Made by a program: the position numbers and the translations under genes. A stretch of 59,175 nucleotides of DNA from Proteromonas lacertae (taxonomy: Eukaryota): contig NGBS01001173.1 in the NCBI GenBank assembly GCA_002245135.1, positions 124,001 through 183,175 of the forward strand, written 5' to 3'. The notes beneath the pieces are model-generated. The model searched no databases. It was not told the DNA's origin and saw only the letters and a list, made by a program, of their open reading frames with translations. Shown here one piece after another: positions 30,576 through 47,558 of this stretch (position 1 is its first letter; every line of letters starts with the position of its first letter).

Positions 30576-30778
30576 AAAAATAACTAAATCACTTCATATA
30601 TTATTATTGTTTTGTTTGTTGTTTAATTAGGCTTTAGTGACATATTCTTCTGTTTTGAATGAATATGTTAAATCAAACAAAACTTCACTACTCATTCATA
30701 GAAACAGTGTGTAAAAACACACTATTACCAACATGTAACTCACTAATCATTTCAATATTTCATTCTATATATAGTATA

Positions 30779-30981
30779 TAAATGGGACCCTGGGACATTG
30801 TCACAGAGTCCTAACGAGTTTTCTAGGGGTCCGTCCCTTTCTAGATTCAGAGTTGACCTTTACGGGAGCTTCATCGATGCAATCGATGAAGCTCCCGTAA
30901 AGGTCAACTCTGAATCTAGAAGGGGACGGACTCCTAGAACACTCGTTAGAACTCTGTGACAATGTCCCAGGGTCCCATTTA
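30779..30981. repeat. Left terminal hairpin: 100-bp stem, GCA loop at 30879-30881
   Basis: Arms 30779-30878 and 30882-30981 are reverse complements with 4 mismatches. Confidence 0.95.
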
Positions 30982-30990
30982 CGTAAGGTT

Positions 30991-31096
30991 CCTACGGGAT
31001 TCCTCCCTACGGGGTCTACTACCTACGGAGTCTACTTCCCTACGGGGACTGCTGTAAGCTATTTCTATACCTATCTATGAGACGATCTCCTACGGG
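30991..31096 (+). repeat. CCTACGG(G) direct-repeat array next to the hairpin
   Basis: Copies at 30991, 31006, 31022, 31039 and 31089; mirrored as CCGTAGG in the right TIR. Confidence 0.8.
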
Positions 31097-31233
31097 TACT
31101 CCTGGAAGCTATCTAGAAGTGTTGGTTACCTCGAGGTGATGATTCTAATCACGCTCTTGACTCTCCTTGCTACGCTGGTGACCTTGTAAAGGCTTTTAAT
31201 TGAATCGTGGAAACCAACTGGGGAACCGGGAGT

Positions 31234-31301
31234 TTACAATTGTTAACTTGTTACCAATTGTTAACTAGTTACCAATTGGTAACAAGTTAACAATTGGTAA
31301 C
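31234..31301. repeat. Array of 16-bp palindromes GTTA(A/C)CAATTG(G/T)TAAC at 18-bp period (4 units)
   Basis: ttacaattgttaac-tt-gttaccaattgttaac-ta-gttaccaattggtaac-aa-gttaacaattggtaac. Confidence 0.9.
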
Positions 31302-31347
31302 TTCGATAGCCTTGAATAGTTGAAATCGTTTACCTAGTCAAGTATAG

Positions 31348-32420
31348 ATGGATCCAACCCAAGCAACATCTCCATTGAATGATAAAGCAGTCATAGAACA
31401 AGACACCTCCAGGGACTTCAATTTAGTTTCTCAACAATCCCAGGTAAACAACTACACACCACTGGTAGAAACATCCTCCGAAGGTAAGGTCAAGAGATCG
31501 CATAAGGAACTTCATAAGGCAGCTGAGGATCATCCAGCTAAGAAGTCACGGGTCAACAAAGTTTATTTCATCGAAGCATTGCTGGAGGTGCCAAGGAAGT
31601 GATTGATCCTAGCAGTATTATAAACGTACGTATTGCTATGTTCAGCTTTGCTTACTCCGCAATCGCAGCTCTTCATCATCATCAACTCAGTAAGAACGCA
31701 GTCAATGAGAATCCCGAGATGTACTCCAAGTACTTGAGCAAGTACATCATTAACTACCAACACCCTATAGCAAATCCAATATCATCTTCCAGACTCATCG
31801 ACTCCTTTGAAGAGAACAATAACGTGGGTGTTCACATCTATCAATTAAAGGGATCGCATTTACGATTAGCCAGACGCAGTAGCCGTACTTTACCGATGAC
31901 TTCTCCTGATCGTTTTGTTTACTTACTTTACATAGAAGCCGAGGAGGATGATCAAGTTCAATATCATTATACCGTGATTGCTAATCCAATGGACGTGATC
32001 GATGTTGATAATCCCGTGATTACTTCTGCTAGAGTCACCGACAAGAACATTTCCTGTGGTCTCTGTCCTTACTGCCTTAAGAAGTACCTAGGTTCCATTA
32101 ATGATCACATCCAACTCACCTGCTTAACTAAGGAGTCCAAGAAAAGTTATTGCAACTCCATGGGAACATCATCGTCTCTTAAGAAGAAGAAGGAGTCGGT
32201 ATACATTCAAGGTCATCTTGTAAAGTGCCTGAAGCTGATGAAAGAACTCAAGTACCAGGATGATGAACAGAAGCAAAGTATCCGATCGTTGAATCAGAGC
32301 TACTTGAAGATCATCAACAAGTTGGTTGTTGTCTATACTCCTGATGATAAGCAGTTGGAGGAGCTCTTATGCAAGACGGGTGATGTTATCAATAAGCTTA
32401 CAGCTCTTGATGATCCTTAA
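31348..32420 (+). CDS. Stand-alone remnant of the Polinton pPolB N-terminal OTU-like domain plus C2HC Zn finger; frameshift near 31593
   Basis: Adding one A joins the ORFs as LLEVPKEVIDPSSIINVRIAMFSFAYSAIAALH...FEENNNVGVHIY...VYLLYI...HYTVI...CPYCL...H...C. This matches the Polinton pattern LPKE...IINV.N.D..CF.WS.LAALH...FE..N.I.INVY...LL...HY..I...C..C. Confidence 0.6.
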
Positions 32421-32604
32421 AGTAATTACTTATCACTTGTCTTTACGGTGTTGTTTTGCTAGGAGGGTTCTTATCAATCAACAATAAGAGCTTTACCGAG
32501 GTCTTCATCAGCTGATATCAAAGCCCATCAAGGTAAAAGGAAAAGGTTTATCATCCCAAGACAAGACAGCTATCGTAAGTACATGAACTAAGCTCATAAG
32601 GCAA

Positions 32605-33372
32605 CTACTTATGGTTCACCATCTTCTTGAAGGTGGATGCCATTCTCGGGAGGTTTAACAAGGTTAAAGCATCATCACAGACTCGGAAGAAGTTCTTGGT
32701 ATCATTGTAAGGAACGTAGAATGCATTGTCCCATACCTCCATGGATTCCTTTGACAGGTTAAAGTCAGGATCCAAATGAAGTCTTATCTGGTTGTGGTCT
32801 GGATCCATCTCCATAATCATCTGGCCATCTAGACTAACTAGTATCACTGTACCATTATAAGAAGCAAGATCCTTTACTTGGATAGCGTCGTGTCCTCCAG
32901 TCTCATTACAAGAAGTCTTGATAAGCTTAACTTCATCCTTGGACTTTAAGGGTACCTTACGATCATCTCCTGGATGAACTCTAACATCTCGTTTATTCCC
33001 GGCCTTACGAGTAGCTACTAATGTCCTCGGTACTTTAATTGGACTCAACTTCCTTGGTTGTTGTTTACTTCCTCGGGCTGTGCTCTTCCTTGTAAGTCTC
33101 TTAGGAGTAGATGGTGGTGTACTTAAAGGTTCATCGTTAATGTAGTCTGGAGCAATGGTTGCTAATAAGCTTAAGTTATCCACAATGGCTTCAATGAGTT
33201 CTTCCCGGAGTGTTGCTTTACCTTGCTCCGTAATCATCGGCGATGACTTCCTTATGGTTCTACTACTAGCTCCTTGTTTCTTTACTCGGAGCTTCTTACC
33301 CTCCTTGGATGACTTATCAATGCTAGAGTTGGTTGATGATGATGATCTGCGTGATGACTTCCTGGGACTCAT
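32605..33372 (-). CDS. Viral hypothetical protein with a Ser/Arg/Lys-rich N-terminus
   Basis: 255-aa ORF with element-type codon usage. Confidence 0.7.
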   Translation of the reverse strand: MSPRKSSRRSSSSTNSSIDKSSKEGKKLRVKKQGASSRTIRKSSPMITEQGKATLREELIEAIVDNLSLLATIAPDYINDEPLSTPPSTPKRLTRKSTARGSKQQPRKLSPIKVPRTLVATRKAGNKRDVRVHPGDDRKVPLKSKDEVKLIKTSCNETGGHDAIQVKDLASYNGTVILVSLDGQMIMEMDPDHNQIRLHLDPDFNLSKESMEVWDNAFYVPYNDTKNFFRVCDDALTLLNLPRMASTFKKMVNHK

Positions 33373-33526
33373 AGACTTTGTCGGGATCGTATGGAAATTT
33401 GCATCTAGATGAATTCTCGGTCTTAAGCAATCGTGTATAAATGATTTTACTCATGTAAAATTGATCCCAATAAGATAGAAGGTGATGATAAAGCAAGTGA
33501 ATTATCAAGGGACGTTGTTAAGCTAG

Positions 33527-33880
33527 TTAGAGTCTTCGTCTCTTACCACCCTTGGACTTTGAAACAACGCGTTCCTCCAAGGTACCTTCAGCATCCATCA
33601 GATCAGCTTTTAGATCTCTTGCTAACCACTTGGCTTCTGCGTATAGACGATGAAGATCATCTAGGAGGATGAAGCTATCGGGACCTGATTCAGAATAGTT
33701 AATGTTGTTAGCTACCCTTTAATGGTAGTAGTTCTGGAGGTCACTTGCAAAGCCTGCAATCTGGATCCATGGAAGATTCAAGTGAATTGCTTTCAAGGAG
33801 TCATCGTCAGGTTCATTGTTAAAGGGATCATCGACCTCGTAGATCTCTTCATCACTCTCCTGGGTAAGTTTCTTAGGCAT
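33527..33880 (-). pseudogene. Viral hypothetical ~117-aa protein with a premature in-frame TAA at 33719-33721
   Basis: MPKKLTQESDEEIYEVDDPF...QNYYH*RVANNINYS...KSKGGKRRRL*, all in one frame; C-terminal NLS-like KRRR. Confidence 0.6.
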
Positions 33881-33933
33881 TGTAAGCACTTGGGTTATTT
33901 CAATAGGAAAAGTTGAACTACTCCCTTCATTGA

Positions 33934-35151
33934 ATGAATTCCTGGAAGAGCATGATTCCCATCAATAGCTCATCGATAAAGATGACAGTCCCTACCATGC
34001 AATCCTCGGAGAAGACATTACCTGAGATCTCCAAGGACTTAGCTATCGACTATCAACATTACCCAGTCCTTACTCCTCCAATCCATCGATGCACTCCTTT
34101 CGTTTGTGGGTGTCGAGATTCAACAAAGCTTCGGAGGTACGACTACCCATCTATATTCGAGTACCGAGATCTACACAAAGGTTATGCTTTACAATTCTTA
34201 TGGGACCTCAAGATCGAAGTAGAAGTATTTAACTCAAAGAAGTTCAACGAGAGTGTAAGTGATGGAATCTGCCTGGATGTTCCAGCAGGTTGTGATCGTC
34301 AGCACCCGTTCTATCTCTTGATGAAGGATAGTAGAAGTCAACTAGGTTCATTGAAAGCAAAGTTCTTTACTGAGACTGGAGAGCTCAAGACTTCAACAAC
34401 GACTTCATCCTCTGATGATCAAGTAAAGGTAACATCGTGGTACTTTGGAGTATCAGTGAATCCTAAGTACACTGATCGCTATAAGCTATGGCTCAACAAT
34501 CAAGGAGACGTCTATCGATCGGTTTATAAGCAATCGCTTACCTCAGACTATTGGAAGGATGGAGACATGATGATCATCTATCCCGAGAAAGTCTGGGAAC
34601 TCATCGATGAAGTAAGTGAGAATAAACAAAGGAATAAACACGTCCACGTGAATGTGAAGAAGGTGGATGAAAAAACAAGGAGCAAGATTCAAATGAAGTT
34701 GGATCAAGATTTAAAGGAGATAGAGAAGTCCCGGAGGAGTATTGAGGCACTCAATGAATCCTCCGAGGACTTGTTTATCAGTGGTAAGCAAAAGTACAGT
34801 AAGGTAATTTATCAAGGAGTGGAATACAACTCTATGGATGGAAGTGACTCTGACAATGACCAAGACTCTCATAGGAAAGGCAAGTATTGCACTATCGATC
34901 TGGATGCTACGATAATGATCTTTAAGTTTAACAAGGATGGGAGCATGAGTGAAAGAACACTAAGTCCCGAGGAGATCTTTAACCGAGAAGCTCATCGTCT
35001 TACTTCTGATCAACGAGAAGAACTCAAGAGATGTCGTCAGCTCACATTCAGGGTCAAGAGAAAGTACGTAAAGCATCAGGCTGTAGATTCATCGGATCGA
35101 AGAAGTCATCATCATCTTCATCATCGACACACTCAGAGGAAGAGCTCATAG
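33934..35151 (+). CDS. Viral hypothetical protein (405 aa)
   Basis: Long ORF; no motif recognised. Confidence 0.75.
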   Translation: MNSWKSMIPINSSSIKMTVPTMQSSEKTLPEISKDLAIDYQHYPVLTPPIHRCTPFVCGCRDSTKLRRYDYPSIFEYRDLHKGYALQFLWDLKIEVEVFNSKKFNESVSDGICLDVPAGCDRQHPFYLLMKDSRSQLGSLKAKFFTETGELKTSTTTSSSDDQVKVTSWYFGVSVNPKYTDRYKLWLNNQGDVYRSVYKQSLTSDYWKDGDMMIIYPEKVWELIDEVSENKQRNKHVHVNVKKVDEKTRSKIQMKLDQDLKEIEKSRRSIEALNESSEDLFISGKQKYSKVIYQGVEYNSMDGSDSDNDQDSHRKGKYCTIDLDATIMIFKFNKDGSMSERTLSPEEIFNREAHRLTSDQREELKRCRQLTFRVKRKYVKHQAVDSSDRRSHHHLHHRHTQRKSS

Positions 35152-35191
35152 CCGATAAGCTATTATTAAATTTCTTGCCTACTCCAGAAAC

Positions 35192-36376
35192 ATGATCTCA
35201 ATTCATCAACCCGATAAGAGACTCTTACCAATCTACCCGAGAGTGTGTATTCATAAGGCCGATCGTGGAATCCAAGAAGGTAATGAATGGACTCTTCTAG
35301 TCAAGGAAGTTCAAGAGAAGTTATCGGAGTGTGAACAATTAGCTCTGGACACGCACTTTATCATGATCGACAATGCTAACAAAGGAATCACTGAGAGTGA
35401 CTTGGAAGTTCACAGCTCAGTAAGGATGTTACTCAAGGTAGTTCATCAGTCAGTGATCAAAGCTAAGGAAGTGTTAAGGACTTGCCTTCATCGTATCACC
35501 GACTGTGAGTTGAAGGATCATGAGATCGTAGAGAAGAGCATTTACCAGAGCCGGGCATGTCTATTCCTATACTCCATGGAAGGAATGATATCAGCAGAGT
35601 ACACGATGGGAAAGTGTAAGTCCGAGATCTACTATTCAGTCTATAAGAAAGCTGCTAACTTAAGACTTAAGTTCCATTGCTTGATGATTAATGCGGTCTC
35701 GTGGATGACAACCTACCTGGACCCTTACAATCTCTTTGGTAAGCACTGTGAGTACATCAATACTATCAAGAACGGAGCCTGCCAGATCAACACTTACTTT
35801 AATGCTGTGGAGGAGAACTACTTTGCTGATCGAGAGTTAACAAGAAGCCTCTTGAGAGATGTTAACATCTCCGACAATGAGGTCGATCACTTGCTAGAGC
35901 AGTTCTATACTATGAAGGAGAAGTGCGATAGACTAGATAGCAAAGTCATTGCTGAACTGTACTACTATGAGGATGATATCGTTAAGCTTCAAGAGAAGTT
36001 TAAGGAGATCGTCCAGATAATGGAGGAGTGTCTACTCCATACTTACAGCTGGTTGATGATGTTCAAGAAGGAGACACCACAAGAAGTTCCTCAAGTGAAG
36101 GACAAGGACAAGGACCAGGAAGAAGTTACTAAAGCAATCACTTACGCAAGTGTCTTAAGTAATAGTAAGAGTCGTCGTAAAGCAAAGAAACGAGATACTA
36201 TTGTTACCTCCGAGGCAACAGTAGTATCCTCAAAGAAGAGATGGTACTATCAAGAGTCAAGGATCGATTACATCTTACACCTTCAAGGAGCTCTTATTGA
36301 GACTAGGAAGTTCATCTCCCAGCTGATCATCGACTCCGAGGAGCACCTTCTCAACTGGTGGGAACAAGATCATTGA
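35192..36376 (+). CDS. Viral hypothetical alpha-helical protein (394 aa)
   Basis: Long ORF with helical/coiled-coil character and a basic patch SRRKAKKR. Confidence 0.75.
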   Translation: MISIHQPDKRLLPIYPRVCIHKADRGIQEGNEWTLLVKEVQEKLSECEQLALDTHFIMIDNANKGITESDLEVHSSVRMLLKVVHQSVIKAKEVLRTCLHRITDCELKDHEIVEKSIYQSRACLFLYSMEGMISAEYTMGKCKSEIYYSVYKKAANLRLKFHCLMINAVSWMTTYLDPYNLFGKHCEYINTIKNGACQINTYFNAVEENYFADRELTRSLLRDVNISDNEVDHLLEQFYTMKEKCDRLDSKVIAELYYYEDDIVKLQEKFKEIVQIMEECLLHTYSWLMMFKKETPQEVPQVKDKDKDQEEVTKAITYASVLSNSKSRRKAKKRDTIVTSEATVVSSKKRWYYQESRIDYILHLQGALIETRKFISQLIIDSEEHLLNWWEQDH

Positions 36377-36463
36377 AGCTTTACTTAAACAGTATTTTTG
36401 ATTATGAAACTAGTGCTTAGGGATTCCCAGAAACAACAACGAGAGTAAGCAAAGTAAAGGGAA

Positions 36464-37861
36464 TTAGAATAAGCTTAAGAAGGAGTTAGCAATCGTTTGA
36501 ATCTTAGCAATGGACTGCTTGAGATCATCAACTTGATCGTGGAACTTCTTAAGGCTCTTGAAAGAGTCCCAGTCTAATGGTACGTAGAGATTGTCCTGGA
36601 GTTGTAAGACTGGGTGCTTGAGAATGGATATCAGCTCATCATACATCTTGGAGTAGTCACGGCAAAGGGTTCTGAAGTTAGCTCTAGTCATCATACCTAT
36701 GTGATTGCTTATGACGTTCTCAAAGTCGGTGACATGCTGGATAATAAAGTCAGTAAGGGCTTCCACCTCCTTATCAAGATCGTTGAGTTTCCATAGCTGA
36801 GTGATTACCTTATCCTTGTAATGGTCAAAGTGTGGATGCTCTTGAAGTAAGCTCTCTCGGAACTGATGGTAGTAGCTGAGAAAGGAAGTAGCATCGCATC
36901 GTAGATCAAGGCTATACTGTTGGAAGTCTCGGAGATAACTCATAAAGACCGTGAACTGCTCAGGAGTATCGGATGTGGTCTTCGTGGCCTGAAGGAATTC
37001 AATCAAGGCATTAACTTTACTCTGGAGCTTTCGGACGATGTTCTTGTAGGCAGTCAGTTCATAGAGAGAATCAGTCTTGGCGTTATGCTTCATAAAGAGA
37101 ACATAGTCTAGCAGATTTACGGCATGTTGATAGATACTACTTTGTCTAGAACACCACTCAGTAAAGTATCTTGGATCCTTGGAGGACATCTTCCATTCAC
37201 TATTGATCAGGGAAAGTAATTTACTGTCATTGACCTGTCCAAGTAAGATTATAAAAGTATCCGTTTCATGAGATGGAGTATCACAGATCTCTTGGTAGCG
37301 AAGCATGGACTTGGTTAAGCAATCGTGGATGATCTGGTAAAGTCTCTTGACTTCCTGACAGTAGTTCATAGGAGTCCAGTACTTGGGTATCTCCTCAGAT
37401 CCCTCCTCGGAGGATTCCTCGGAGCTCTCTTCGGAGCTCTCTTCGGAAGAGGAGTATAACTCTTCAGAAGGCTCCTTTGAAGGCTCCTTTGTAGGTTCCT
37501 TTGTAGGTTCCTTTGAAAGTTCCTTTAAAGGTTCCTTTAAAGGTTCTTCAACCGGTTCAGTGACAGGATCTCTCTGATTCAGAAGCTCCTTTTGAAACTC
37601 AATATCATCATCAATCTCTGTCTCTACATCGGACAGATCCCTTGAAGTATCACAGCATGGTTCTGTACTGTCACTATCACTGTCATTACAGATAGCCTCG
37701 GTCTTTACCTATAAACAATAAAGCAATGAAGCAAGTACCTTCTTCTTATCAGGCTGACAGTCATCAGTCTTCAAGGAAGCTTCCATACACATGGTGATCT
37801 TATTAACAGCTCCTTGACCACAACTATTACAAAACTCACAGGTACGAGATCTTTTTGACAT
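36464..37861 (-). CDS. Viral ~455-aa protein with a 30-nt intron (37709-37738): Cys-rich N-terminus, KEP(S/T/L) and EESS repeats, helical C-terminus
   Basis: Exon 1 MSKRSRTCEFCNSCGQ...PDKKK; intron GTACTTGCTTCATTGCTTTATTGTTTATAG ends in an in-frame TAG; exon 2 VKTEAIC...KYWTP runs in frame into ORF 36464-37369. Confidence 0.75.
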
Positions 37862-38094
37862 GGTAAATTACGTAATTGACAAAGTATTAGAAGTGCAAGA
37901 AAATTGAAACTAAGAGAAGTGTCGATTCATAAGCATTAATTGTAAAATGCCAAATGCAATACATAGTACCAGTGTATTGGGTATTAGTCAAAATAGAATT
38001 GAATTTAGTCGTTACAAGATAGTCATAATAGAATTGCAAATTAGTGGTTTCAATATATGAAGGTATATATACATGATTGAAGGTTCAATTCATA

Positions 38095-38176
38095 GGGGGG
38101 CGTAGCCCGAATGGTCAGAGGAATGCCGTAGGAAGTTCTAGCCCAGCCGGGTAGCCCAGCCGGGTTCAAATCTTGC
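38095..38176 (+). ncRNA. tRNA-derived Pol III-like cassette (A box and B box, upstream TATA)
   Basis: GGGGGGCG-TAGCCCGAATGG (A box) ... GGGTTCAAATCTTGC (B box/T arm). TATATATA lies ~30 nt upstream at 38064. Internal 13-bp duplication TAGCCCAGCCGGG x2. No 3' acceptor strand. Confidence 0.55.
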
Positions 38177-38203
38177 AAAGGAAATAAAAGATAATAAAAG
38201 TAC

Positions 38204-38319
38204 CCTAGAAAACTCGTTAGAACTCTGTGACAATGTCCCATAGTCCCATTTACGTAAGGTTCCTACGGGATTCCTCCTAACGGGGTCTATTGACTACGGT
38301 GCCTATTTCCCTACGGGAC
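38204..38319 (+). repeat. Internal partial copy of the left TIR (distal half of the inner hairpin arm plus CCTACGG array)
   Basis: Aligns to 30933-31049 in the same orientation. Confidence 0.92.
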
Positions 38320-38377
38320 GATCACTTACAGGATGATCTTCAAGGGAAGTACTTGATAAATTCCTTAAGCAAAAGCC

Positions 38378-39196
38378 ATGGTCAAGAAAGTAAGAGCGTT
38401 CTCAAGAGCAACTAAAACCAAGATCATTCCCAAGGACATCCAACGATCCCTTGTAACTCAAGTAGCTGATGTACTCAACATTCCGGCAGCTCCAGTCGTA
38501 CTTCTCCGAGATGCTGAACTAGCAAGGAGATCAACTAAGACTCCCAGGTCAACATCTTCACGTCCAGACAAAGCAATCATCGATCTGGCTAATAAGTATA
38601 AGGAGGTGATGAGCTTACCAAAGGAAGCTTCCGAGGAGACCAGAAGTATTCTACGTCAACTATCACGGGATGTTGCTAACATCGCTGAGAAGGACAACCC
38701 ATCCTTTCAATTGATCCGAGAGCATGCTGCTAAAGCCGGTGTTGAGATTCCTGACTTCAAAAGGAGTTCCAAATCTGATGGTAAGTCAACTCCATCAATT
38801 CTTCATCGGGCAGTGGATTATATAAAGGGAAAGCTTCCAGCTGGAGAGACTGTCAAGGATATAATGAGGAGTCCACAAGTATGGGCCGCAGTAGTTAACT
38901 ATCTTGGACGAGGTAAAGGTGATTCCAAAGAGGAGGAAGAGGATGATGTTGGTTACTATGCTAGACTATATAATCAATACCGTAAGGTGACTTCCAAGAG
39001 CCGTGAACGCGAGTCCTCCTCCTCCGATGATGATGATGATGAGATTCCAATCCTTGAGGTTGATCCAGACTATGTGTCGGAGGACGATGCTGACGATGTT
39101 GAAGCTGATGATGAGTTCCCCTTTAATCATTCTCACGGTAAGATCAAGATGGTAAAGCCTTCTCCTTCTGAGTGGTACAAGTGCTTACAGTTGTAA
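38378..39196 (+). CDS. Viral hypothetical protein with basic N-terminus and acidic C-terminus
   Basis: 272-aa ORF. Confidence 0.7.
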   Translation: MVKKVRAFSRATKTKIIPKDIQRSLVTQVADVLNIPAAPVVLLRDAELARRSTKTPRSTSSRPDKAIIDLANKYKEVMSLPKEASEETRSILRQLSRDVANIAEKDNPSFQLIREHAAKAGVEIPDFKRSSKSDGKSTPSILHRAVDYIKGKLPAGETVKDIMRSPQVWAAVVNYLGRGKGDSKEEEEDDVGYYARLYNQYRKVTSKSRERESSSSDDDDDEIPILEVDPDYVSEDDADDVEADDEFPFNHSHGKIKMVKPSPSEWYKCLQL

Positions 39197-39231
39197 TCCT
39201 TAACTTCTTCGGTCTATCTATCTCTCCTAGT

Positions 39232-39759
39232 ATGTTTGGGACTTTTAAGCAACAGCACCTCCATCAACAAGAACTCTTTGAAGCCTTATCAGCGATCCGT
39301 GATCACTTCAAGAGAAGTCCTGGCAATCAGCATGTCATTGATAATCACTACCTCCGAGACTTTAAGAAGAGAAGATATCTCCGACACTCCATCACGAACT
39401 ACAACAGTGCTGATCAAGGAGATGTCTACGATTCCATGAATAACCTAGTTAATGAGATCAAGGAACTGCTCCAAGAGAATCCACCGTCAGTACGTGCAAT
39501 TGACATCCCCGAGTATGATGAACTGATGAAACGATCCTCCGATGATGACTTAACCTACTTGCTACGGGATCAACTGATAAGGCTCCTTGTCTTGTGTGGT
39601 GGATCTAACTCCTCAGGCATCTTCAAGATGAATAAGCTAAAGCAACGCCACCTAAGGAACATACAATGTTTAATTAAGATAATCAAGGTAAGGAAGTTCT
39701 ACGTGTCGAAGGAGTTACAGTCTCTTTATAAAGTAGTTCTTCGATCTCTAGCTTACTAA
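39232..39759 (+). CDS. Viral hypothetical helical protein (possibly exon 2 of the 38378 gene)
   Basis: ORF 39172-39759, first ATG at 39232. A candidate 38-nt GT-AG intron at 39193-39230 would join the two frames. Confidence 0.6.
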   Translation: MFGTFKQQHLHQQELFEALSAIRDHFKRSPGNQHVIDNHYLRDFKKRRYLRHSITNYNSADQGDVYDSMNNLVNEIKELLQENPPSVRAIDIPEYDELMKRSSDDDLTYLLRDQLIRLLVLCGGSNSSGIFKMNKLKQRHLRNIQCLIKIIKVRKFYVSKELQSLYKVVLRSLAY

Positions 39760-39813
39760 CATTCTACTAAGTATTGTTATCTTAAGTTCATCGTTGTTGA
39801 TGGGGTTAATCAT

Positions 39814-40752
39814 CTAGTCCACAAAGAGTTGCTTATCGAAGTTGATCCTATACTGAGCCTTGTGCATATCAATGTATAGGAAGCTATAAGGAGTATGCTC
39901 CGTGGCCGTATGATAGAACTCCTTGAAGAGTCTAAAGGGAGTTGCCAAGGCAAGGGACTTATGAAGTAATTGAAGGTGGCTGCATGATATGTTTTTGAAG
40001 GCTAAGCAATAGTCCAGCTGAAGTCTTTGACCAGGAGTAAGGTCTGTAATGTACTGACTACTGATAATCACCTTTGCCTTGTAATGCCTGTTCTGCTTAA
40101 GGAAGGTGATTAGCTGGGGATCTTTCAGGTCATTGCTAACATCATCGAATACAAAGATGTTCTCAGCGCAGGTGCTATTCTCTTTATCTGGAGGTGGTAG
40201 ATCGTGAAGTACTTCCTCCAGGTTGTTGGTCTTGTCTTCCTCGTTCACGATTGAGTCAAAGGTGTAGTAGTCGATCTTGTTGTACTCCAACATCTCCATG
40301 ATCTTATCGTAGAGCACATCCTTATGGATCGTACCAACAAATAAGTAGATCCTTTGATTCTTACCCTTGATTAGTATATGTTGAAGGACATTGTAGATGA
40401 CTGTTGTCTTACCAGAGTTCTTCTTTGCTAGGAGGAAGATGTTACAGAAGGGTTCATCGAAGTAGTCATAGCCGACAACATCCTTCCCGTGACTGGAGGT
40501 CTTGATTTTCAAAGGCTTTACTTCTGCCTGGTTGATCTTCTCATACTCTATCTTTAAATGGCCCTTGGATGATCTCGGTAACTTCTCTGGTAAGTAAGCA
40601 TCACCATGTACTTCATCATCATCTCCATCATCATCCTTAAAGCGATCATCTCCTGATCCTTTCAGTCTTTGCATCTTACTGAGATGAAGATCTCCAAAGG
40701 GTTGCTTTCTCTTGTTAACCATAAGCATCATAAGAACTAAGTATACGATCAA
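39814..40752 (-). CDS. A32/FtsK-HerA family genome-packaging ATPase
   Basis: Walker A variant AKKNSGKTT, Walker B IFVFDD, QNRHYK (Arg-finger RH), IISSQY, C-terminal PYSFLYID...YRINFD. Confidence 0.9.
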   Translation of the reverse strand: MIVYLVLMMLMVNKRKQPFGDLHLSKMQRLKGSGDDRFKDDDGDDDEVHGDAYLPEKLPRSSKGHLKIEYEKINQAEVKPLKIKTSSHGKDVVGYDYFDEPFCNIFLLAKKNSGKTTVIYNVLQHILIKGKNQRIYLFVGTIHKDVLYDKIMEMLEYNKIDYYTFDSIVNEEDKTNNLEEVLHDLPPPDKENSTCAENIFVFDDVSNDLKDPQLITFLKQNRHYKAKVIISSQYITDLTPGQRLQLDYCLAFKNISCSHLQLLHKSLALATPFRLFKEFYHTATEHTPYSFLYIDMHKAQYRINFDKQLFVD

Positions 40753-40776
40753 GAACTTATCGATAAGGAACTTTAC

Positions 40777-42129
40777 TTATGCTATACAACGAATGCCCGA
40801 GGTGGTAATCTCAGCTCTTCGTCCAGTGATCAAGTAGAATCGGTGATTCACAGACTTGTGATCTAGCTCTGAGTTGTAGATCTCAAAGGTGATCTTTAAA
40901 TCTCCGTCTAGTCTTCTCCCAGCAATGGTCTTAACATTACCAAGGTTGTCACTACCGAAGTTGAGTACCTCAAAGAACTTCTCGGTAAAGGGCTTCTTGT
41001 TGAGTTGATCATACCAGCTTCCTCCAATGTACTTCTTAAGCAACTCGTAGCTATCGTAAGTCTCCATGTTCTGATAGTTGGGATTGTAGTTGAAGTCGTT
41101 GATCATCCACTTGAATCTTGCTTTGGAGTCTAAGGGAAGGACACGGTTCTTCATTGTATATGCCTGATAGACGATGGCTTTAATATAAGGACCAATAGAG
41201 CTGTTGATTGTAAAGGAGTAGTTGAAGTAATCGCCGGTGCTGGTGATGGTGATGCTCTTGTCATGATAGTCACTAAAGGGAATGGGCTTCTCAATACAGG
41301 AGACGATAGATTTCTTGTTGCTGTTGAAGTCCTTGTTGTATAAGGCTCTGATGCAAATGTCCTTGATCTCACACTTTGCCTGAAGAGTAACATCCTCCTT
41401 GCTATATTCATACTTATCATCGTCGGTATCGAACTTCGCATCAGTAGCTGTACTCAATCTTCCGAAGTTGGTGATCTCTCCCCATCGGATGCTGAGAAGT
41501 AACTTCTCTCCGAAGAATAGATCAGTGGGATTTGCTAGGACAGTGTTATACATCTCATTGAAAGGAATCTTTACAAGGACTTCCAAGTAGCCGTCTTTCA
41601 CTTGAGTATCCCAGAAGGTGTTGTTTACCTTGGAGGTGCATCCATCATTTCCATTATCTACCGAGGTGAACTCCATACCAGGCTGGAGGATATCTCCGTT
41701 CTTCTTTTGCCAGATACCATCGAAATAAGTGTGTTGTCTATTGACGTGAGTTGTCTTCCTTTGAACTTGTTGCATAAGCCCTCTGTATTGTTCATAAGTG
41801 TCAGTTACATAAAGCAAGTTGATTCCAGCAGCATTGTGTACTCTCAAGGAGGAGATATTGAAGGTGTTGTATAGGAGGATCTTCTCAGCCTTCTTGTTAT
41901 TGTCAGAATCCTTATATCCGATGATTAGACGATACTCTAAGTAACTCTTGCTAAGGTTAATGCAATTGTCGGTAGCTATCTCGAACATGACCTCTGCGGT
42001 TGATCCAGAAGTACCAGCATTGACCGAGGTGTTGCTCTGGGTAGGGTTGACTTTCACGGGTACGTAAAGTGAATCATAACTCTCGGAGTAAGCTCCTTGT
42101 TGAACACTTGCTGGGATGAATGTTGTCAT
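40777..42129 (-). CDS. Putative double-jelly-roll major capsid protein
   Basis: 450 aa, beta-strand-rich. N-terminal 'EVMFEI...INLSKSYLEYRLII' and 'IPFNEMYNTVL...DLFFG..LLLSIRW' resemble Polinton-like-virus MCPs. Lies between the ATPase and the protease. Confidence 0.7.
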   Translation of the reverse strand: MTTFIPASVQQGAYSESYDSLYVPVKVNPTQSNTSVNAGTSGSTAEVMFEIATDNCINLSKSYLEYRLIIGYKDSDNNKKAEKILLYNTFNISSLRVHNAAGINLLYVTDTYEQYRGLMQQVQRKTTHVNRQHTYFDGIWQKKNGDILQPGMEFTSVDNGNDGCTSKVNNTFWDTQVKDGYLEVLVKIPFNEMYNTVLANPTDLFFGEKLLLSIRWGEITNFGRLSTATDAKFDTDDDKYEYSKEDVTLQAKCEIKDICIRALYNKDFNSNKKSIVSCIEKPIPFSDYHDKSITITSTGDYFNYSFTINSSIGPYIKAIVYQAYTMKNRVLPLDSKARFKWMINDFNYNPNYQNMETYDSYELLKKYIGGSWYDQLNKKPFTEKFFEVLNFGSDNLGNVKTIAGRRLDGDLKITFEIYNSELDHKSVNHRFYLITGRRAEITTSGIRCIA

Positions 42130-42216
42130 TGCCTTTGGGTAATCTCCTAAGTAAAATTGAACTAGGAAAAGACTTATTACTTAGATTAAGTTAAAGGTTC
42201 TCTTGAGCAGTGCCAT

Positions 42217-43020
42217 TTACTTCTCGCCCTGGATAGAGTTGAAGTTAGTTGCCTCCTTGAAGGACAGGTTCCTTCCGAGGATATTGAATAGGAAGTAGAT
42301 TGCAAAGTAACCACAAGTGTCGGTGTTGACCTTCTGGTTCTTGATTCGATTGATCTTGAGTTGGTACTTATCCTCGGGATTACCTTTATGGTGTTGTAGT
42401 TGCTGGATGAACCACGAGTAGTTCTTAGGGTTCTCTCCGAAGCTATCATAGTAGTAGATTTGCCTTCGATTATCATCCACGACTAAGGCAACCCAATGCC
42501 CGATCGCATTCTCAGCACTTGTAGTTGTAAGGGTATTGAGAATGCATCCCCATCTATTTGTTCCTAAGACTCGAAGGTCTTGCTTAAGTTGATCCCATAA
42601 GAAGACTCCAGCGAATTGTCCATTGAAGTCACTGTACTCTTCCTTGATCAGCCTCTCGATATCGAAGTTGCTTAAGGCATCATCATGGCTAGCAACTTTA
42701 CCTTCAGCAAAGTACTCATACTTATCCTCATGCTCCTTATCAACATCATCATCGATGATATCCGAGAGTGGCATCTCCAACATCGAGTTGATTTTCAGCT
42801 GTCTAAATAAAGGGTCTGTATCTGCATACACTACAGGTTGTCGTTCTTGCTCTTGTCTACTAGGTAATAGGATTGGACTTTGAACTGCTGGCTGGGCAAT
42901 TGGTATTGAAGGAACGTAGGAGTTCACCTGGTCCTCCATTATCGAATAGCTGCCTCCTTGAACTTTACCTAGACCTTTGAAGCCATTGAAGAGATTACCA
43001 GATGATTCCTCCCATACCAT
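42217..43020 (-). CDS. Adenain/Ulp1-like (clan CE) virion maturation cysteine protease
   Basis: Catalytic motifs GHWVAL, YYYDSFG, NQ...DTCGYF. Confidence 0.92.
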   Translation of the reverse strand: MVWEESSGNLFNGFKGLGKVQGGSYSIMEDQVNSYVPSIPIAQPAVQSPILLPSRQEQERQPVVYADTDPLFRQLKINSMLEMPLSDIIDDDVDKEHEDKYEYFAEGKVASHDDALSNFDIERLIKEEYSDFNGQFAGVFLWDQLKQDLRVLGTNRWGCILNTLTTTSAENAIGHWVALVVDDNRRQIYYYDSFGENPKNYSWFIQQLQHHKGNPEDKYQLKINRIKNQKVNTDTCGYFAIYFLFNILGRNLSFKEATNFNSIQGEK

Positions 43021-44072
43021 TACCTAGTCCTCCTCCTCACATTGAGTTGATTGATCGCGTTAACCATTGCATTGTTAAGTGTTGTATCGGGACCTTTGTA
43101 CTGAGTCTCTAGCCATCGGAAGAAGTCATCGTTAGGAGTGTTGTTGTAATTGTCATTGAGTTTATCAACAGCCTTATCAATCAACTGAACTACTGGGTGG
43201 TTCTCATCATAGCCAGCGGCCTTAGCAAAAGACTTAAACTGTTCCTTGTTGCCTTGAACGAACTTAAGAAACTCTCCAGCTAGTGTCTGATGATCTGTTT
43301 GAAACAACCTTCCTATACCCGGGATGGAACGTAGGAGACTTCCTACGATAGGGATCTGTCCTATTCTACTTCCGAAGGTTGAGATTAATCCAACCATTCC
43401 AAGGATGGCTCCGATGGCACCTCCTATCTTCATTCCACGGTCTGTTATTCCTGACTGATTCTGGGTAAGTGAGTTACTAGTATTCCCAAAGGTGTTGATC
43501 ATCCTGGAGACATCTTGTTGTTGCTTCAATAAGGAGTAAATATCATTATTACTAGTTGTGTTATCATATAAGGGAAGAGTTCCACGGCTAATTGTTGTCC
43601 TTGAGTTGTTGACATTGTAAGGGGTCATGATGGAGCTCTGATAGTCCACATACTTTTGGTAATCATCAGCAAAGTAAGTTGCTGAAGGATGCACATTGAG
43701 CTTCTTACGTTCCTCCTCGGCAAGCAGCTTTCTAAGGTCAGGGTTTTTCACGAGGAAATGATCGTTGTAGGTCTTGCTAGCAAGGTACTTCTCCTGGAGT
43801 TCACCGCTCTCCTCGATGTTGTTCTCCAAGGGATTGCTCTTAACGATTGATAAGGAATTACCTTCTCCGTCTTGAGTATCATCAGTGTTGTTGTTAGGAG
43901 CTATCTCTGATAGCAAGGTAGTTAAGTAGTGTAAGTCATCAGTGTTGTTTATCTTGACCTGGAACTCCTTCTTAAGCTTCTGCTGTAGTGCCTTCACAAC
44001 TCTTGAAGTAAGCTTCTTCTTCCTTGAGTTGATTCCTTTGTCTTTATCGTTTACCATCGATATCTTTACCAT
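43020..44072 (-). CDS. Viral hypothetical virion protein with a Gly-rich hydrophobic/amphipathic segment
   Basis: 350 aa; GMKIGGAIGAILGMVGLISTFGSRIGQIPIVGSLLRSIPGIGRLF. Its stop overlaps the protease start (TAATG). Confidence 0.7.
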   Translation of the reverse strand: MVKISMVNDKDKGINSRKKKLTSRVVKALQQKLKKEFQVKINNTDDLHYLTTLLSEIAPNNNTDDTQDGEGNSLSIVKSNPLENNIEESGELQEKYLASKTYNDHFLVKNPDLRKLLAEEERKKLNVHPSATYFADDYQKYVDYQSSIMTPYNVNNSRTTISRGTLPLYDNTTSNNDIYSLLKQQQDVSRMINTFGNTSNSLTQNQSGITDRGMKIGGAIGAILGMVGLISTFGSRIGQIPIVGSLLRSIPGIGRLFQTDHQTLAGEFLKFVQGNKEQFKSFAKAAGYDENHPVVQLIDKAVDKLNDNYNNTPNDDFFRWLETQYKGPDTTLNNAMVNAINQLNVRRRTR

Positions 44073-44393
44073 GGACGATTGACTATTGGAAAAGAACTTC
44101 TATTGCTTATCAGTCCTCCTCGGGATTGTCAGGATAGTTATACCAAGGCTTTACAACCACCGAGGACTTCAAAGCTTCTGATTGTTGATGAAGTTTATTT
44201 AGAGTCGATAGATTGAACCTCCGGGATCTATCTTGTACTGCTTAAGTTGATTGTCCATCTCCTGAGTCTTTATCTCCCGGTGTTTTCTCTTAGACTTCCT
44301 TCTAGGATAGTTGTCAGGAGGATCTTCAAGGCACTTGTTCTTTCGATCGTAAGTTGTTTCTTCAATCTCCATTGAATGGAACTTGGAATTGAC

Positions 44394-44828
44394 TCAATAC
44401 TGAAGGTTATTGTTCTTTAGGAACTGCTCTATCTTCTTTTGATTCTCAAGAGCCTTCTTCTTACTAATACGTTTCTTTCTTGCTTGTTGTGTATTGCTCT
44501 TCTCGGGAGTGTTCATCAACTTGGCCTTTAAGTTCTTCAACCCATCGGAGATAAGCTTCTTGATGTTACTGAGTACTAGTTCCATAGAGTAAGTTCTTGG
44601 AAGGGCATTGGAGATATCGTCCAGTTCATAGTCGTCAATAGCAACGATGTCAGGGATGGGAATGGGTATTGCTGGGCCTTTAGATGTTCTTCTTCTTCTT
44701 CTAGTCTTTATCAGCCTAGGTATATCAGTCTTGTTAAGTTGCCTTACAATGATCTTCTCTTTGCGTTTGTCTTTAAGCTTCTTGAGTATCTCAGGATGCT
44801 GCTTAAGCATTGCTTTGGTTCTAGCCAT
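44394..44828 (-). CDS. Basic putative core/DNA-binding protein starting MARTK
   Basis: 144 aa, very Lys/Arg-rich (KTRRRRRTSK, ARKKRISKKK). Confidence 0.7.
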   Translation of the reverse strand: MARTKAMLKQHPEILKKLKDKRKEKIIVRQLNKTDIPRLIKTRRRRRTSKGPAIPIPIPDIVAIDDYELDDISNALPRTYSMELVLSNIKKLISDGLKNLKAKLMNTPEKSNTQQARKKRISKKKALENQKKIEQFLKNNNLQY

Positions 44829-44896
44829 TGTAATTGCCTTTAAGAAAATGCCTTATATCATCTTCTAGTATTTACTTTCCCGAGTGATTCTTACGA

Positions 44897-45528
44897 TGGA
44901 ATATCTCTTGTCCGATAACATCAGTAGCCGATCCTTGTTGATCTCCAACCTCACTTGTCTAGTCGATAGTTACCAAGAGTGTACTGGAGCTTCATGGAAC
45001 TTTACTTCCTTTGACTTTGTCACCATCCTTTCATCCGTACTACAAAACATCACTGTGAAGACTGATGGAAGCAGCAACAATAGTATGATCGATATGATTA
45101 TCAACTATGGGATGACCGTCTTGTTAGCAATTGTCCTTACAGGTGTTGGCTATATCCTTAAGAAGCTAGGAGTGATCAATAACATGTCCGACATCACTGA
45201 GATCAAGAACATGGTATTAACTCAACGAAGGCAAAGTACTGTCTTTGAGAGTGACTTAGAGGATATCAAGAAGACTTTACTGGGTAATTCTGCAAGAAGT
45301 AGTGGTAACTCTCCTAGCAATGGAGCTCCGATGATGTTGCTAGGCTCTTCAACTTCAACCATTGACAGTACTACTTCTCCTATCATTCCAGAGACAATCC
45401 CTAAGGGATCTGATGTTGAGTCCCTTGAAGTAAGCATTAGTGATAATGAGTCCGGCAAAGTACTTCCCAAGAAGATTGATATCTCCGATGGAAACTTACT
45501 TGACCCCAGCAATAGCATTGAATTCTAA
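44897..45528 (+). CDS. Viral single-pass membrane protein with a Ser-rich tail
   Basis: ORF 44884-45528; TM segment IINYGMTVLLAIVLTGVGYILKK. Confidence 0.65.
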
Positions 45529-45544
45529 CTTAAGTCCTTTAACT

Positions 45545-46661
45545 TTATCGTATATTGTATCTCTTGATGAGCTTGCGGTTCCTTGTTATACCAGCATCTT
45601 CATTTACCTTGAGGAGTTCATTTGACTTATAGCACTTATCGGAGATGTCCTTGACCGGAATTCATGTTAGCATCTCCGAGGATGAAGGAGTAGGTGTTCT
45701 TTGCGATGATCCGATAGATGACGTCAGAGTAGAATAAGGCCTTCTCTATCTTGCTTACTCGACGTTCCTTAACTCTTACGAAGTCCCCAATATTGAACTG
45801 TTCCATGGCAGTGTTCCTTTGGTTACACATCTCGGCGTGATTGTAGAAGTACTGCTGGACATCTTCGTCGTAGAAGACTTCATTGGGAGTGAACCAGGAT
45901 AAGGATGCCTTCGGTTTATTGTTGTACTGATCAACGACTTCATCGATAAGTAGATTGAATTGTCTTACGTTCAGAGCTCCTCGAGAGTGGAAGTCAACAT
46001 CAGCTATTCTCTTGTAAAGCAATCTCTTGACCTCAGAGACTGAATGATCAAGGATGCTCATTACATGATGCTCATCTACGTCCTTAACGATGTACTGGAT
46101 CTGGTGTTGTATAAGCTCCTCTTGAAACAAGTTGCATAAGAAGGCTCCTTCCTTGTCTGTTAAGATCGTTGATACATTGCGGCTATGCTCATCCCTTAAA
46201 GGTTCCTTCTCATGTCCTTGATAGAAGAACCGTTGCCATGCCTCCATCACTGAGTTATAAGTCTTATCAGGCATCCAGTAACAGAATACCTTCCTGCTAG
46301 GTACGTGAACTAGATAAAGCCATCCGTACTTGTGACTATTCTTTGGTAAGAAGAAGACTATGTCCATTTGATAGCTGTCAGGAACTGGAATGATCTTTAA
46401 GGGCTTTATCCTGGTGTTGATGTAGACTACCTGATTGCCCGGTTGTCTGTAGTAGAACTCCTTTACGTATTCTACTGGGATTGATTTATCGTAGTGATGT
46501 ACTTGCCTTATGAACTGATTAAGAGATAGGAATGGTAAGGTGTTGTAAGTCCTTTGAAGTAGATCCTCAGGAGATGAGAAGGTCGGAGGTTGATAGAACG
46601 TAGACTTCACGTATGGCTTTATAGGGATCTCCTTACTTGTGTTATTGATGGTTGCTTCCAT
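45545..46661 (-). CDS. Retroviral-type (rve) integrase of the Polinton class; frameshift near 45661 in the C-terminal domain
   Basis: YQMDIVF (D), ILTDKEGAF (D), SILDHSVSEVK (third acidic residue), YNNKPKASLSWFTPNEV, FNIGDFVRV. The shifted frame continues IPVKDISDKCYKSNELLKV...NIR* to 45545. Confidence 0.9.
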
Positions 46662-46756
46662 GGGATCATTGACAATCAGGTTACCTTCTTCTTCTTCAGG
46701 CTGTTGTAGTTGTGGATCTTCAAGGGTTGATTCATCATTGGGAAAGACTTTACTAC

Positions 46757-47230
46757 TTAGAGACGATAGACAATGACTTTGTTGGTGCTTCTACGGGTAC
46801 TTGATTTACCACCTTTACTTCTCTCGGCCTTATGAAGTTTTACTTTACCTAGTCCATTGGTTTTGAGAACATCACTTATCATCGGTCCAGCTACAGGAAT
46901 GTACTTGCTTACCGTGGATAGCACCTTGCTTTTCTTAAAGAAGTTACCTATGTCCTGGAAGAATCCCTTGCCTTTGACTTTTGACTTCTTCGATTGTTGG
47001 TTCTCAAGGAAGCTGCTATAAAGGGTTGGAGTATAATAACAATAAGCAGGAGCCGGGTTGTACTTTCTCTTGGTTGCTTTATCGGAGCTAGCAAAGGGTA
47101 ATGGCTCCAATGGATCCTCGTAATAACATTGATCGGTAAGATCATCCACGGAGGTGAATCTGGATCTACTATCAAGACTATCCTCGTTGGAGTATTGATG
47201 AGTGTTGGGATTGTAGGTATGGATAGGCAT
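46757..47230 (-). CDS. Putative membrane-lytic virion protein (adenovirus pVI/cupiennin-like)
   Basis: Adenain-type site VKGK|G is followed by the amphipathic helix GFFQDIGNFFKKSKVLSTVSKYIPVAGPMISDVLK and a basic tail. Confidence 0.6.
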   Translation of the reverse strand: MPIHTYNPNTHQYSNEDSLDSRSRFTSVDDLTDQCYYEDPLEPLPFASSDKATKRKYNPAPAYCYYTPTLYSSFLENQQSKKSKVKGKGFFQDIGNFFKKSKVLSTVSKYIPVAGPMISDVLKTNGLGKVKLHKAERSKGGKSSTRRSTNKVIVYRL

Positions 47231-47472
47231 CTTACTTTGACCTTGGAATTAACAAACTGGAATGCCATTCTTGGGAGCTTCCTAAACGTAGAAACCCCGT
47301 AGTTTCTACGGTCTATCAGTCTCATTTTTCCCGGACAATTGTTGAGCATTGGAACACTTTACCTAGGTGAATTATAAGGTCATTGTAACTTACCTCTAGG
47401 AAGCTCCCGAGAATGCTTATCATTATCTTCAAGTGCCCTTGAGAAATCCACAACTAGCTAGAACCTCCCGGA

Positions 47473-47558
47473 GTTACCATTTGGTAACTTGTTAACAATT
47501 GTTAACTTGTTACCAATTGGTAACTAGTTAACAATTGGTAACAAGTTAACAATTGTAA
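47473..47558. repeat. Right array of 16-bp palindromes (5 units, 18-bp period)
   Basis: gttaccatttggtaac-tt-gttaacaattgttaac-tt-gttaccaattggtaac-ta-gttaacaattggtaac-aa-gttaacaattgtaa. Confidence 0.9.

What the first reader, a model, noticed from the sequence alone, without database searches (positions are those of the whole stretch)
38204..38319. Internal TIR remnant splits the element into accessory and core modules
Seen: a ~115-bp copy of left-TIR sequence 30933-31049 lies between the orphan-gene block (31348-37861) and the block holding all virion and integrase genes (38378-47230). It combines variants from both left hairpin arms (CTAGAAAACTCG like the outer arm, GTTAGAACTC like the inner arm). 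Inference: a ~9.8-kb minimal element (38204-48030) gained a ~7.4-kb cargo arm by TIR recombination or template switching, or terminal sequence is reused as an internal promoter/origin that could yield sub-genomic replicons.
Basis: partly seen in the sequence, partly recalled or inferred. Interest (0 to 1): 0.7.

Follow-up and report, generated by a model that had tools for sequence, protein, structure and literature searches.

The report
Viral end sequence reused internally
A 17-kb virus-like element lodged in a single-celled eukaryote's genome carries in its middle a 130-base copy of part of its own end repeat, which likely serves as a reused gene switch for the genes on either side rather than marking the end of a smaller virus.

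Summary
The repeat is real. 38204-38317 matches both terminal inverted repeats (TIRs) of a 17.3-kb capsid- and integrase-encoding element at 103 of 114 bases, and continues after a 35/44-nt gap to 38332. It is the middle of the TIR (last 49 nt of the hairpin arm plus a CTACGG repeat array); it lacks the element's end, the hairpin apex and the inner TIR, so it cannot act as a terminus by itself. It lies in the element's largest intergenic gap, between two divergent genes, faces a reversed 17-nt copy of the same motif, and its own substitutions miss the CTACGG cores (0 of 6, P=0.046, post hoc). The two halves show no seam in codon use or k-mer signature, so recent foreign cargo is not supported. 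Best reading: an old duplication of the TIR's binding-site array, kept as an internal control element (0.5). A functionless scar of a same-lineage module join (0.27) or a live recombination site giving a 9,988-bp mini-element (0.12) are not excluded. Internal repeats in such viruses are already described.

The parts
30773..48031 (.). Integrated Polinton-like (polisuvirus-type) element, 17,259 bp, about 42% GC in 22-31% GC host DNA; ends read 5'-AG...CT-3'
   Evidence: GC step; TIRs; ends and 5 of 6 (or 4 of 4) target duplication
30773..31301 (+). Left TIR
   Evidence: 541 alignment columns to the right TIR, 39 differ: 27 substitutions and 12 gap columns in 4 events
30779..30981 (.). Left terminal palindrome, 100-nt arms, 3-nt loop, 4 mismatches
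   Evidence: folds at -127.8 kcal/mol, z=-23
30933..31096 (+). TIR segment that is the source of the internal copy: end of inner hairpin arm plus five CTACGG motifs
31638..32420 (+). 260-aa ORF; lead-level resemblance to the N-terminal region of Polinton protein-primed polymerases, no polymerase domain
   Evidence: Atlas nearest named clusters 0.78-0.83 with DNA_pol_B_2/Endonuclease_7; no Pfam hit; model pLDDT 38, fold search empty
36464..37861 (-). ORF transcribed leftwards from the central gap; one in-frame TAG inside a 30-nt GT..AG candidate intron (37738-37709)
37862..38094 (.). Most AT-rich stretch of the element (28% GC)
38118..38134 (-). Reversed 17-nt copy of the TIR motif (16 of 17), inside a 62% GC patch 38095-38175
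   Evidence: 3 of 3000 random 91-mers scored as well
38139..38164 (.). 13-nt tandem repeat, two copies, not found in the TIRs
38204..38317 (+). Internal TIR copy, main block: 49 nt of hairpin arm, the palindrome junction at 38252/38253, three CTACGG and one CTAACGG
   Evidence: 103 of 114 to each TIR
38317..38332 (+). Extension of the copy after an internal deletion; matches TIR 31081-31096 and 47712-47697
38378..39196 (+). 272-aa orphan ORF starting 62 nt behind the last CTACGG
   Evidence: no homologue among 1956 candidates
39814..40731 (-). Likely packaging ATPase (Walker A and B read by eye; family label recalled)
   Evidence: sequence; no Pfam or PDB sequence hit
40777..42129 (-). [quoted passage not shown]
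   Evidence: low-confidence model (pLDDT 48) matches Sputnik, iridovirus, mavirus, PBCV-1 capsids, best E=7e-7; 4 relatives at 33-35%
42217..43020 (-). Ulp1/adenain-type maturation protease
   Evidence: PF02902 E=5.8e-6
45636..46661 (-). rve integrase; reading frame shifts near 45660 relative to relative P0012
   Evidence: PF00665 E=2.8e-5, below the curated cut-off
47297..47311 (.). Inverted pair of CTACGG outside the TIR, 67 nt upstream of ORF 47230 (-)
47491..48031 (-). Right TIR with terminal palindrome 47821-48025

Best explanation
The 130-base stretch is a copy of the middle of the element's own terminal repeat that likely arose long before this insertion and is likely kept as an internal protein-binding control element, probably a promoter or enhancer, for the two genes that diverge from it. 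Shown: it derives from the TIR, has lost 35-44 nt internally, lacks the end, the hairpin apex and the inner TIR, and sits 62 nt before one start codon, with a reversed motif copy 265 nt before the opposite start. Inferred: the CTACGG array recruits a viral or host factor, as it would at the two ends where genes also run inwards; occasional gene conversion between the three copies would explain the mixed alleles. How the copy was first made (template switch in one genome, or a join of two sibling genomes) is not resolved.
For: Largest non-coding gap of the element, 516 nt, between divergent ORFs. 0 of 6 private substitutions in the 65 sub-terminal sites fall in the 25 core sites, P=0.046; whole copy 0 of 9, P=0.098. 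CTACGG: 16 in the element, 8 in TIRs, 3 in the copy, 3 in 1,881 nt of other non-coding DNA against 2 in 14,156 nt of coding DNA (P=0.003 at the coding rate). Reversed 17-mer matched by 3 of 3000 controls. Motif-to-ATG distances fall in two pairs, 62/67 and 253/265 nt. Age: the copy's branch is about 8.5 of 114 changes against 2.5 for each TIR; neutral decay of that size would have put about 49 stops in 13,197 coding nt, whereas three broken frames were seen. No compositional seam. Precedent for terminal binding sites reused at an internal promoter: AAV2 p5 (PMC2944168, passage).
Against: No expression, binding or copy-number data. The motif was chosen after seeing the sequence, the P values are modest, and two of the three 'other non-coding' motifs are one inverted pair. 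Most viral ORFs have no CTACGG upstream, so it is not the general promoter. The copy also keeps 49 nt of hairpin arm, which a promoter need not. The copy points into two orphan ORFs; capsid, ATPase, protease and integrase genes run the other way. Mixed alleles could also come from assembly polishing between repeats. The stop-codon argument is biased because ORFs were defined as stop-free.
Confidence: 0.5

Rival explanations
1. Functionless scar of an old module join: two sibling elements integrated in tandem (or a circle recombined in through the 114-nt segment) and a deletion left part of the second element's left TIR between the blocks.
For: Direct orientation to the left TIR and position at the border between a block without recognised virion genes and one with them. 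Left and right TIRs differ in 39 of 541 columns, more than post-insertion decay allows (about 16 stops expected), which fits ends from two variants. Tandem integration plus deletion is proposed for these viruses (10.64898/2026.10.13.758929, section 13).
Against: The copy is not closer to the right TIR, as the second element's end should be (11 vs 11 differences). It is the middle of the TIR with both flanks gone; the 44 nt behind it do not resemble the right-end unique DNA (1156 of 3000 controls scored as well). Changes avoid the cores. No seam, which excludes only a distant donor.
Confidence: 0.27
2. Live recombination or template-switch site: crossover with the left TIR would delete a 7,271-bp circle and leave a 9,988-bp element with both hairpin ends; pairing with the right TIR would form a panhandle that could rebuild a left end or invert 9,666 bp.
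For: Lengths. Predicted duplex of copy and right TIR -115 kcal/mol, -65.5 with the terminal hairpin closed. The copy spans the palindrome junction. Shared alleles hint at exchange. Truncated virophages with regenerated TIRs are known (PMC8547959, passage). End repair through a panhandle in adenovirus is recalled, not read.
Against: Longest perfect run only 35 nt; 10% divergence shows the copy is not being kept identical. The copy region does not fold (z=-1.6). No product seen anywhere, though no data set could show one.
Confidence: 0.12
3. Assembly artefact or local duplication made after insertion.
For: Palindromic multi-copy repeats are error-prone in assembly (own knowledge); the integrase frameshift may be such an error; no reads could be checked.
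Against: Nine positions differ from both TIRs, two of them parallel C-to-T changes in neighbouring repeat units, plus an internal deletion; flanks are unique, element-like DNA; divergence exceeds what the near-intact ORFs allow after insertion.
Confidence: 0.06
4. Recent capture of a 7.4-kb foreign cargo arm by a 9.8-kb minimal element.
For: Left-block ORFs have no Pfam, PHROG or NCBIfam match at threshold.
Against: Codon G test p=0.24 over 3003 splits of 15 genes; dinucleotide distance 28 between halves against 133-159 to the host, with no peak at 38,000; both halves avoid AAAA five-fold; the first left ORF is a lead to a Polinton-type domain.
Confidence: 0.05

Closest known systems
Internal repeats bracketing modules in Polisuviricotina (Barth, Ha, Aylward, bioRxiv 10.64898/2026.10.13.758929; abstract, passages and section 13 read; figures and supplements not seen)
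   Same: A repeat inside the genome lies at the border of the morphogenesis block; tandem integration with deletion is offered as a route to module reassociation.
   Different: There the repeats are described as separate from the TIRs and bracket a second replicase; here the repeat is a piece of the TIR and no replicase is recognised in either block.
Endogenous virophages and PLVs with terminal palindromes in Halocafeteria seosinensis (bioRxiv 10.64898/2026.07.28.741278; passages and section 7 read)
   Same: Palindromes at TIR ends next to the target site, in elements with rve integrase and no pPolB; hairpin priming proposed.
   Different: 52-nt palindromes in their figured subtype against about 203 nt here; no internal TIR copy in the passages read.
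AAV2 p5 promoter with cryptic Rep-binding and nicking site (PMC2944168; passages read)
   Same: A hairpin-ended virus repeats its terminal binding motif at an internal promoter.
   Different: Unrelated ssDNA virus with an HUH Rep protein; no Rep was found here; analogy only.
Polintons/Mavericks and MELD viruses, including the Blastocystis MELD virus (PMC8097293 passages; PMC8502044 passages and section 10)
   Same: About 17 kb, TIRs, rve integrase, cysteine protease, double jelly-roll capsid, gene modules.
   Different: No full pPolB; long terminal hairpins; capsid protein with only 4 unnamed relatives at 33-35%.
Truncated EMALE virophages of Cafeteria burkhardae (PMC8547959; passages read)
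   Same: Shorter TIR-flanked derivatives of integrated viruses exist, as the recombination rival predicts.
   Different: No internal TIR copy is given as their cause in the passages read.

Membership tests
Polinton/Maverick (element) | [quoted passage not shown] | tested here: not met
   No pPolB hit in 16 ORFs; only a lead for an N-terminal domain in 31638-32420, not confirmed by fold
Polinton/Maverick (element) | rve integrase | tested here: met
   PF00665 E=2.8e-5, under the curated cut-off; relative P0012 carries PF00665; frame shifts near the 3' end
Polinton/Maverick (element) | TIRs | tested here: met
Polinton/Maverick (element) | 6-bp target site duplication | tested here: inconclusive
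   5 of 6 match, or an exact 4-bp one, in TA-rich flanks; no empty allele
Polinton-like virus / Polisuviricotina (element) | [quoted passage not shown] | tested here: met
   Fold search best E=7e-7, top ten all DJR capsids, from a pLDDT-48 model
Polinton-like virus / Polisuviricotina (element) | Packaging ATPase | tested here: inconclusive
   Walker motifs by eye in 39814-40731; no Pfam or PDB hit
Polinton-like virus / Polisuviricotina (element) | [quoted passage not shown] | tested here: inconclusive
   None identified by profile scans; candidates not folded
Polinton-like virus / Polisuviricotina (element) | Placement of the capsid protein in a named PLV or virophage group | not tested
   Only 4 unnamed relatives; no tree built
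Functional terminus of this element (internal copy) | Terminal AG..CT end and full palindrome able to fold | tested here: not met
   End sequence absent at 38204; 49 of 100 arm nt only; z=-1.6 against -23 for the true end
Repeat-bracketed replication module (Barth et al.) | Repeats separate from the TIRs | tested here: not met
   The copy is 90% identical to both TIRs
Repeat-bracketed replication module (Barth et al.) | Bracketed block encodes a replicase | tested here: inconclusive
   No replicase recognised; most left ORFs are unassigned
Internal promoter/origin reusing terminal binding sites (AAV p5 type) | Terminal motif repeated upstream of an internal gene | tested here: met
Internal promoter/origin reusing terminal binding sites (AAV p5 type) | Protein binding and promoter or origin activity | not testable with these tools
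   No run listed; needs bench work

The most novel reading that the evidence does not exclude
The internal copy is a built-in switch: recombination or panhandle repair at the shared segment splits the 17.3-kb virus into a 9,988-bp hairpin-ended mini-virus with all capsid and integration genes and a 7,271-bp circle with the other genes, a programmed two-part life cycle not found in my searches for Polinton-like viruses.
Probability: 0.1. Interest if true: 0.75.

Novelty: new variant of a known kind. Interest (0 to 1): 0.36.

Why it matters
Promoters and origins of Polinton-like viruses are mostly unknown. A natural partial copy of the TIR shows which 130 of about 530 bases were kept, and names one short motif (CTACGG) and the hairpin junction as concrete candidates for binding and reporter tests. 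It also predicts two exact junction products that one PCR or long-read set can confirm or dismiss. If it is only a scar, it is one more example of module shuffling already described for these viruses.

Tried and rejected
No whole genome is held. No sequencing run, and no RNA holder, was listed for 33400-43300; this is no evidence either way, and no reads were laid. Capsid-based locus searches: none in viral contigs with the single protein; with a 5-sequence alignment 0 of 299 viral and 0 of 396 metagenome candidates confirmed. TIR patterns: 0 viral hits for a 22-mer; 5 metagenome hits for an 18-mer and 2 viral hits for another 18-mer, all 7 without further DNA or protein similarity, dropped as chance. 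ORF 38378: 0 of 1956 candidates. ORF 31542-32420 against 1.84 billion representatives: 1 hit, a repeat protein matched by summed weak stretches, rejected; its single-sequence model was too poor to use. ORF 33934: nothing above 0.79 in the Atlas. No Rfam match in 37800-38450. An apparent further extension of the copy towards right-end unique DNA was not significant. Clustering of substitutions away from the junction, P=0.065, not significant. One search used 26 substitutions and 5 indel events for the TIR pair; the list gives 27 and 4, which does not change the conclusion. Literature searches (listings only except for the nine papers named) found no description of an internal partial TIR copy in a Polinton-like virus; the library lacks most subscription journals, and figure 6 and the supplements of the Barth preprint, which I could not see, may show such a case.

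Full report
Context. The finding lies inside a 17,259-bp element (30773-48031) of about 42% GC in host DNA of 22-31% GC. It has TIRs of about 530-540 bp that differ in 39 of 541 columns and begin with a palindrome of about 203 nt that folds strongly (z=-23). It encodes a double jelly-roll capsid protein (low-confidence model, top ten fold matches all such capsids), an Ulp1/adenain-type protease and an rve integrase, and a likely packaging ATPase (motifs read by eye; two searches gave no hit). No full polymerase or helicase was recognised. It works like a Polinton-like virus; it fails the Polinton test for lack of pPolB. The host looks like an AT-rich single-celled eukaryote (inference); a TGTTTGTT motif 38 nt behind the upstream host gene and a 30-nt candidate intron recall Blastocystis-type signals (PMC12129017, passages), but neither was tested against chance and the lineage is left open.

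Observation. Confirmed. 38204-38317 equals left TIR 30933-31046 and the reverse of right TIR 47756-47869 at 103 of 114 bases each. After a 35- or 44-nt gap a further 16 nt match (38317-38332; 0 of 1000 controls). Thirteen columns vary among the copies: nine differ from both inner TIR segments (one of them, 38211, is shared with the left outer arm), two follow the left TIR (38221, 38254) and two adjacent ones follow the right (38278-38279). So the copy is a mosaic of left and right states as well as of the two left arms, on the evidence of few bases.

What it lacks. It has 49 of the 100 arm bases, no apex, no terminal AG end and none of the last 200 nt of the TIR. The region does not fold better than shuffles (z=-1.6). 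It therefore cannot be an integration end or a hairpin primer by itself.

Where it sits. In the 516-nt gap, the largest of 17 non-coding gaps between the TIRs, between ORF 37861 (-) and ORF 38378 (+). From left to right the gap holds the element's most AT-rich stretch (28% GC), a 62% GC patch with a reversed 17-nt copy of the TIR motif (16 of 17; 3 of 3000 controls) and a 13-nt tandem repeat, an A-rich spacer, and the copy. The hexamer CTACGG occurs 16 times in the element: 8 in TIRs, 3 in the copy, 3 in other non-coding DNA, 2 in coding DNA. Two of the three are an inverted pair 67 nt before ORF 47230, close to the 62 nt between the copy's last motif and ORF 38378; the other two distances are 253 and 265 nt. 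None of 6 private substitutions in the sub-terminal part hits a core (P=0.046; whole copy 0 of 9, P=0.098). These tests are post hoc and modest. Most ORFs have no such motif upstream.

Age. On the 114 shared bases the copy's branch carries about 8.5 changes and each TIR about 2.5. Had this arisen by neutral decay after insertion, about 49 premature stops (16 for the TIR difference alone) would be expected in 13,197 coding nt (that call used 26 substitutions where the list gives 27). Three interrupted frames were seen: the integrase 3' end, ORF 33880, and ORF 37861, whose stop lies in a candidate intron. ORFs were defined as stop-free, which biases this, but the capsid protein covers 99-100% against relatives. 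The copy likely diverged while the virus was active.

Cargo or not. Five left and ten right genes (the 84-aa ORF and the interrupted ORF 33880 left out) do not differ in synonymous codon use (p=0.24, 3003 splits); dinucleotide distance is 28 between halves against 133-159 to the host, and 14 sliding split points give 17-54 with no peak at the copy. Tetranucleotide profiles correlate at 0.80 between halves and 0.18-0.41 with the host, and both halves avoid AAAA about five-fold. The first long left ORF is nearest to Polinton polymerase-linked clusters in the Atlas, at lead level only; such polymerases carry an N-terminal vOTU domain (PMC11071308, passages), and folding did not confirm it here. 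A distant or recent donor for the left block is thus unlikely; a sibling donor is not excluded.

Mechanism. Best reading (0.5): an old duplication of the TIR's junction and binding-site array, retained as an internal control element for the divergent gene pair. TIR origin, loss of end functions and position are shown; binding, transcription and gene conversion are inferred. Rivals: scar of a same-lineage module join (0.27); live recombination site giving a 9,988-bp element plus 7,271-bp circle, or a 9,666-bp inversion (0.12; lengths, pairing energies, but only 35 nt of perfect identity); artefact or late duplication (0.06); recent foreign cargo (0.05). The first two are not exclusive: a scar can be kept because it is useful.

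What could not be tested. No genome, no run listed, no relative with DNA in viral or metagenome contigs. The only relatives are proteins without context.

Comparison. Terminal palindromes in pPolB-less elements are described in Halocafeteria. Shortened virophages with regenerated TIRs are known. AAV2 p5 is a functional analogy. PMC10120064 (passages) added only general context. Nine literature searches found no internal partial TIR copy, with the limits given under Tried and rejected. Verdict: real, a new variant of a known kind, interest 0.36.

Noticed in passing
window 31348-47230: Both halves strongly avoid A/T runs (AAAA observed/expected 0.21 and 0.18, host 0.85; lysine mostly AAG), the opposite of the AT-rich host.
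   Followed up: partly
window 45560-45670: Integrase reading frame shifts near 45660; the part matching the relative's residues 332-350 lies in another frame. Decay or assembly error.
   Followed up: partly
window 37709-37738 (-): 30-nt in-frame GT..AG candidate intron holding the only stop of ORF 37861-36464: a possible spliceosomal intron in a viral gene.
   Followed up: partly
window 33450-33880 (-): Short ORF with an in-frame TAA after 53 codons, reading on for about 60 more.
   Followed up: no
window 31231-31302 and 47469-47563: Palindromic arrays of an 18-nt GTTAAC/GGTAAC unit at the inner ends of both TIRs, one unit longer on the right; not part of the internal copy.
   Followed up: no
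window 30779-30981 and 47821-48025: Terminal palindromes of about 203 nt with mismatched arms, six bases inside the element's ends; longer than the 52-nt ones figured for Halocafeteria.
   Followed up: partly
window 30758-30778 and 48026-48045: The host flanks on the two sides are nearly reverse complements, so the target site was a TA-rich near-palindrome.
   Followed up: no
window 37461-37560: 12-bp coding tandem repeat (EPxK-like units) in ORF 37861-36464.
   Followed up: no
window 46757-47230 (-): 157-aa ORF with a basic, glycine-flanked amphipathic-looking C-terminal part, recalling virion core proteins of Polintons (recalled label, no hit).
   Followed up: no
window 22824-30575 and 566-7816: Very long host ORFs (2583 aa; 1994 aa plus 419 aa stop to stop); the first ends in several hydrophobic segments and looks like a receptor.
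   Followed up: no
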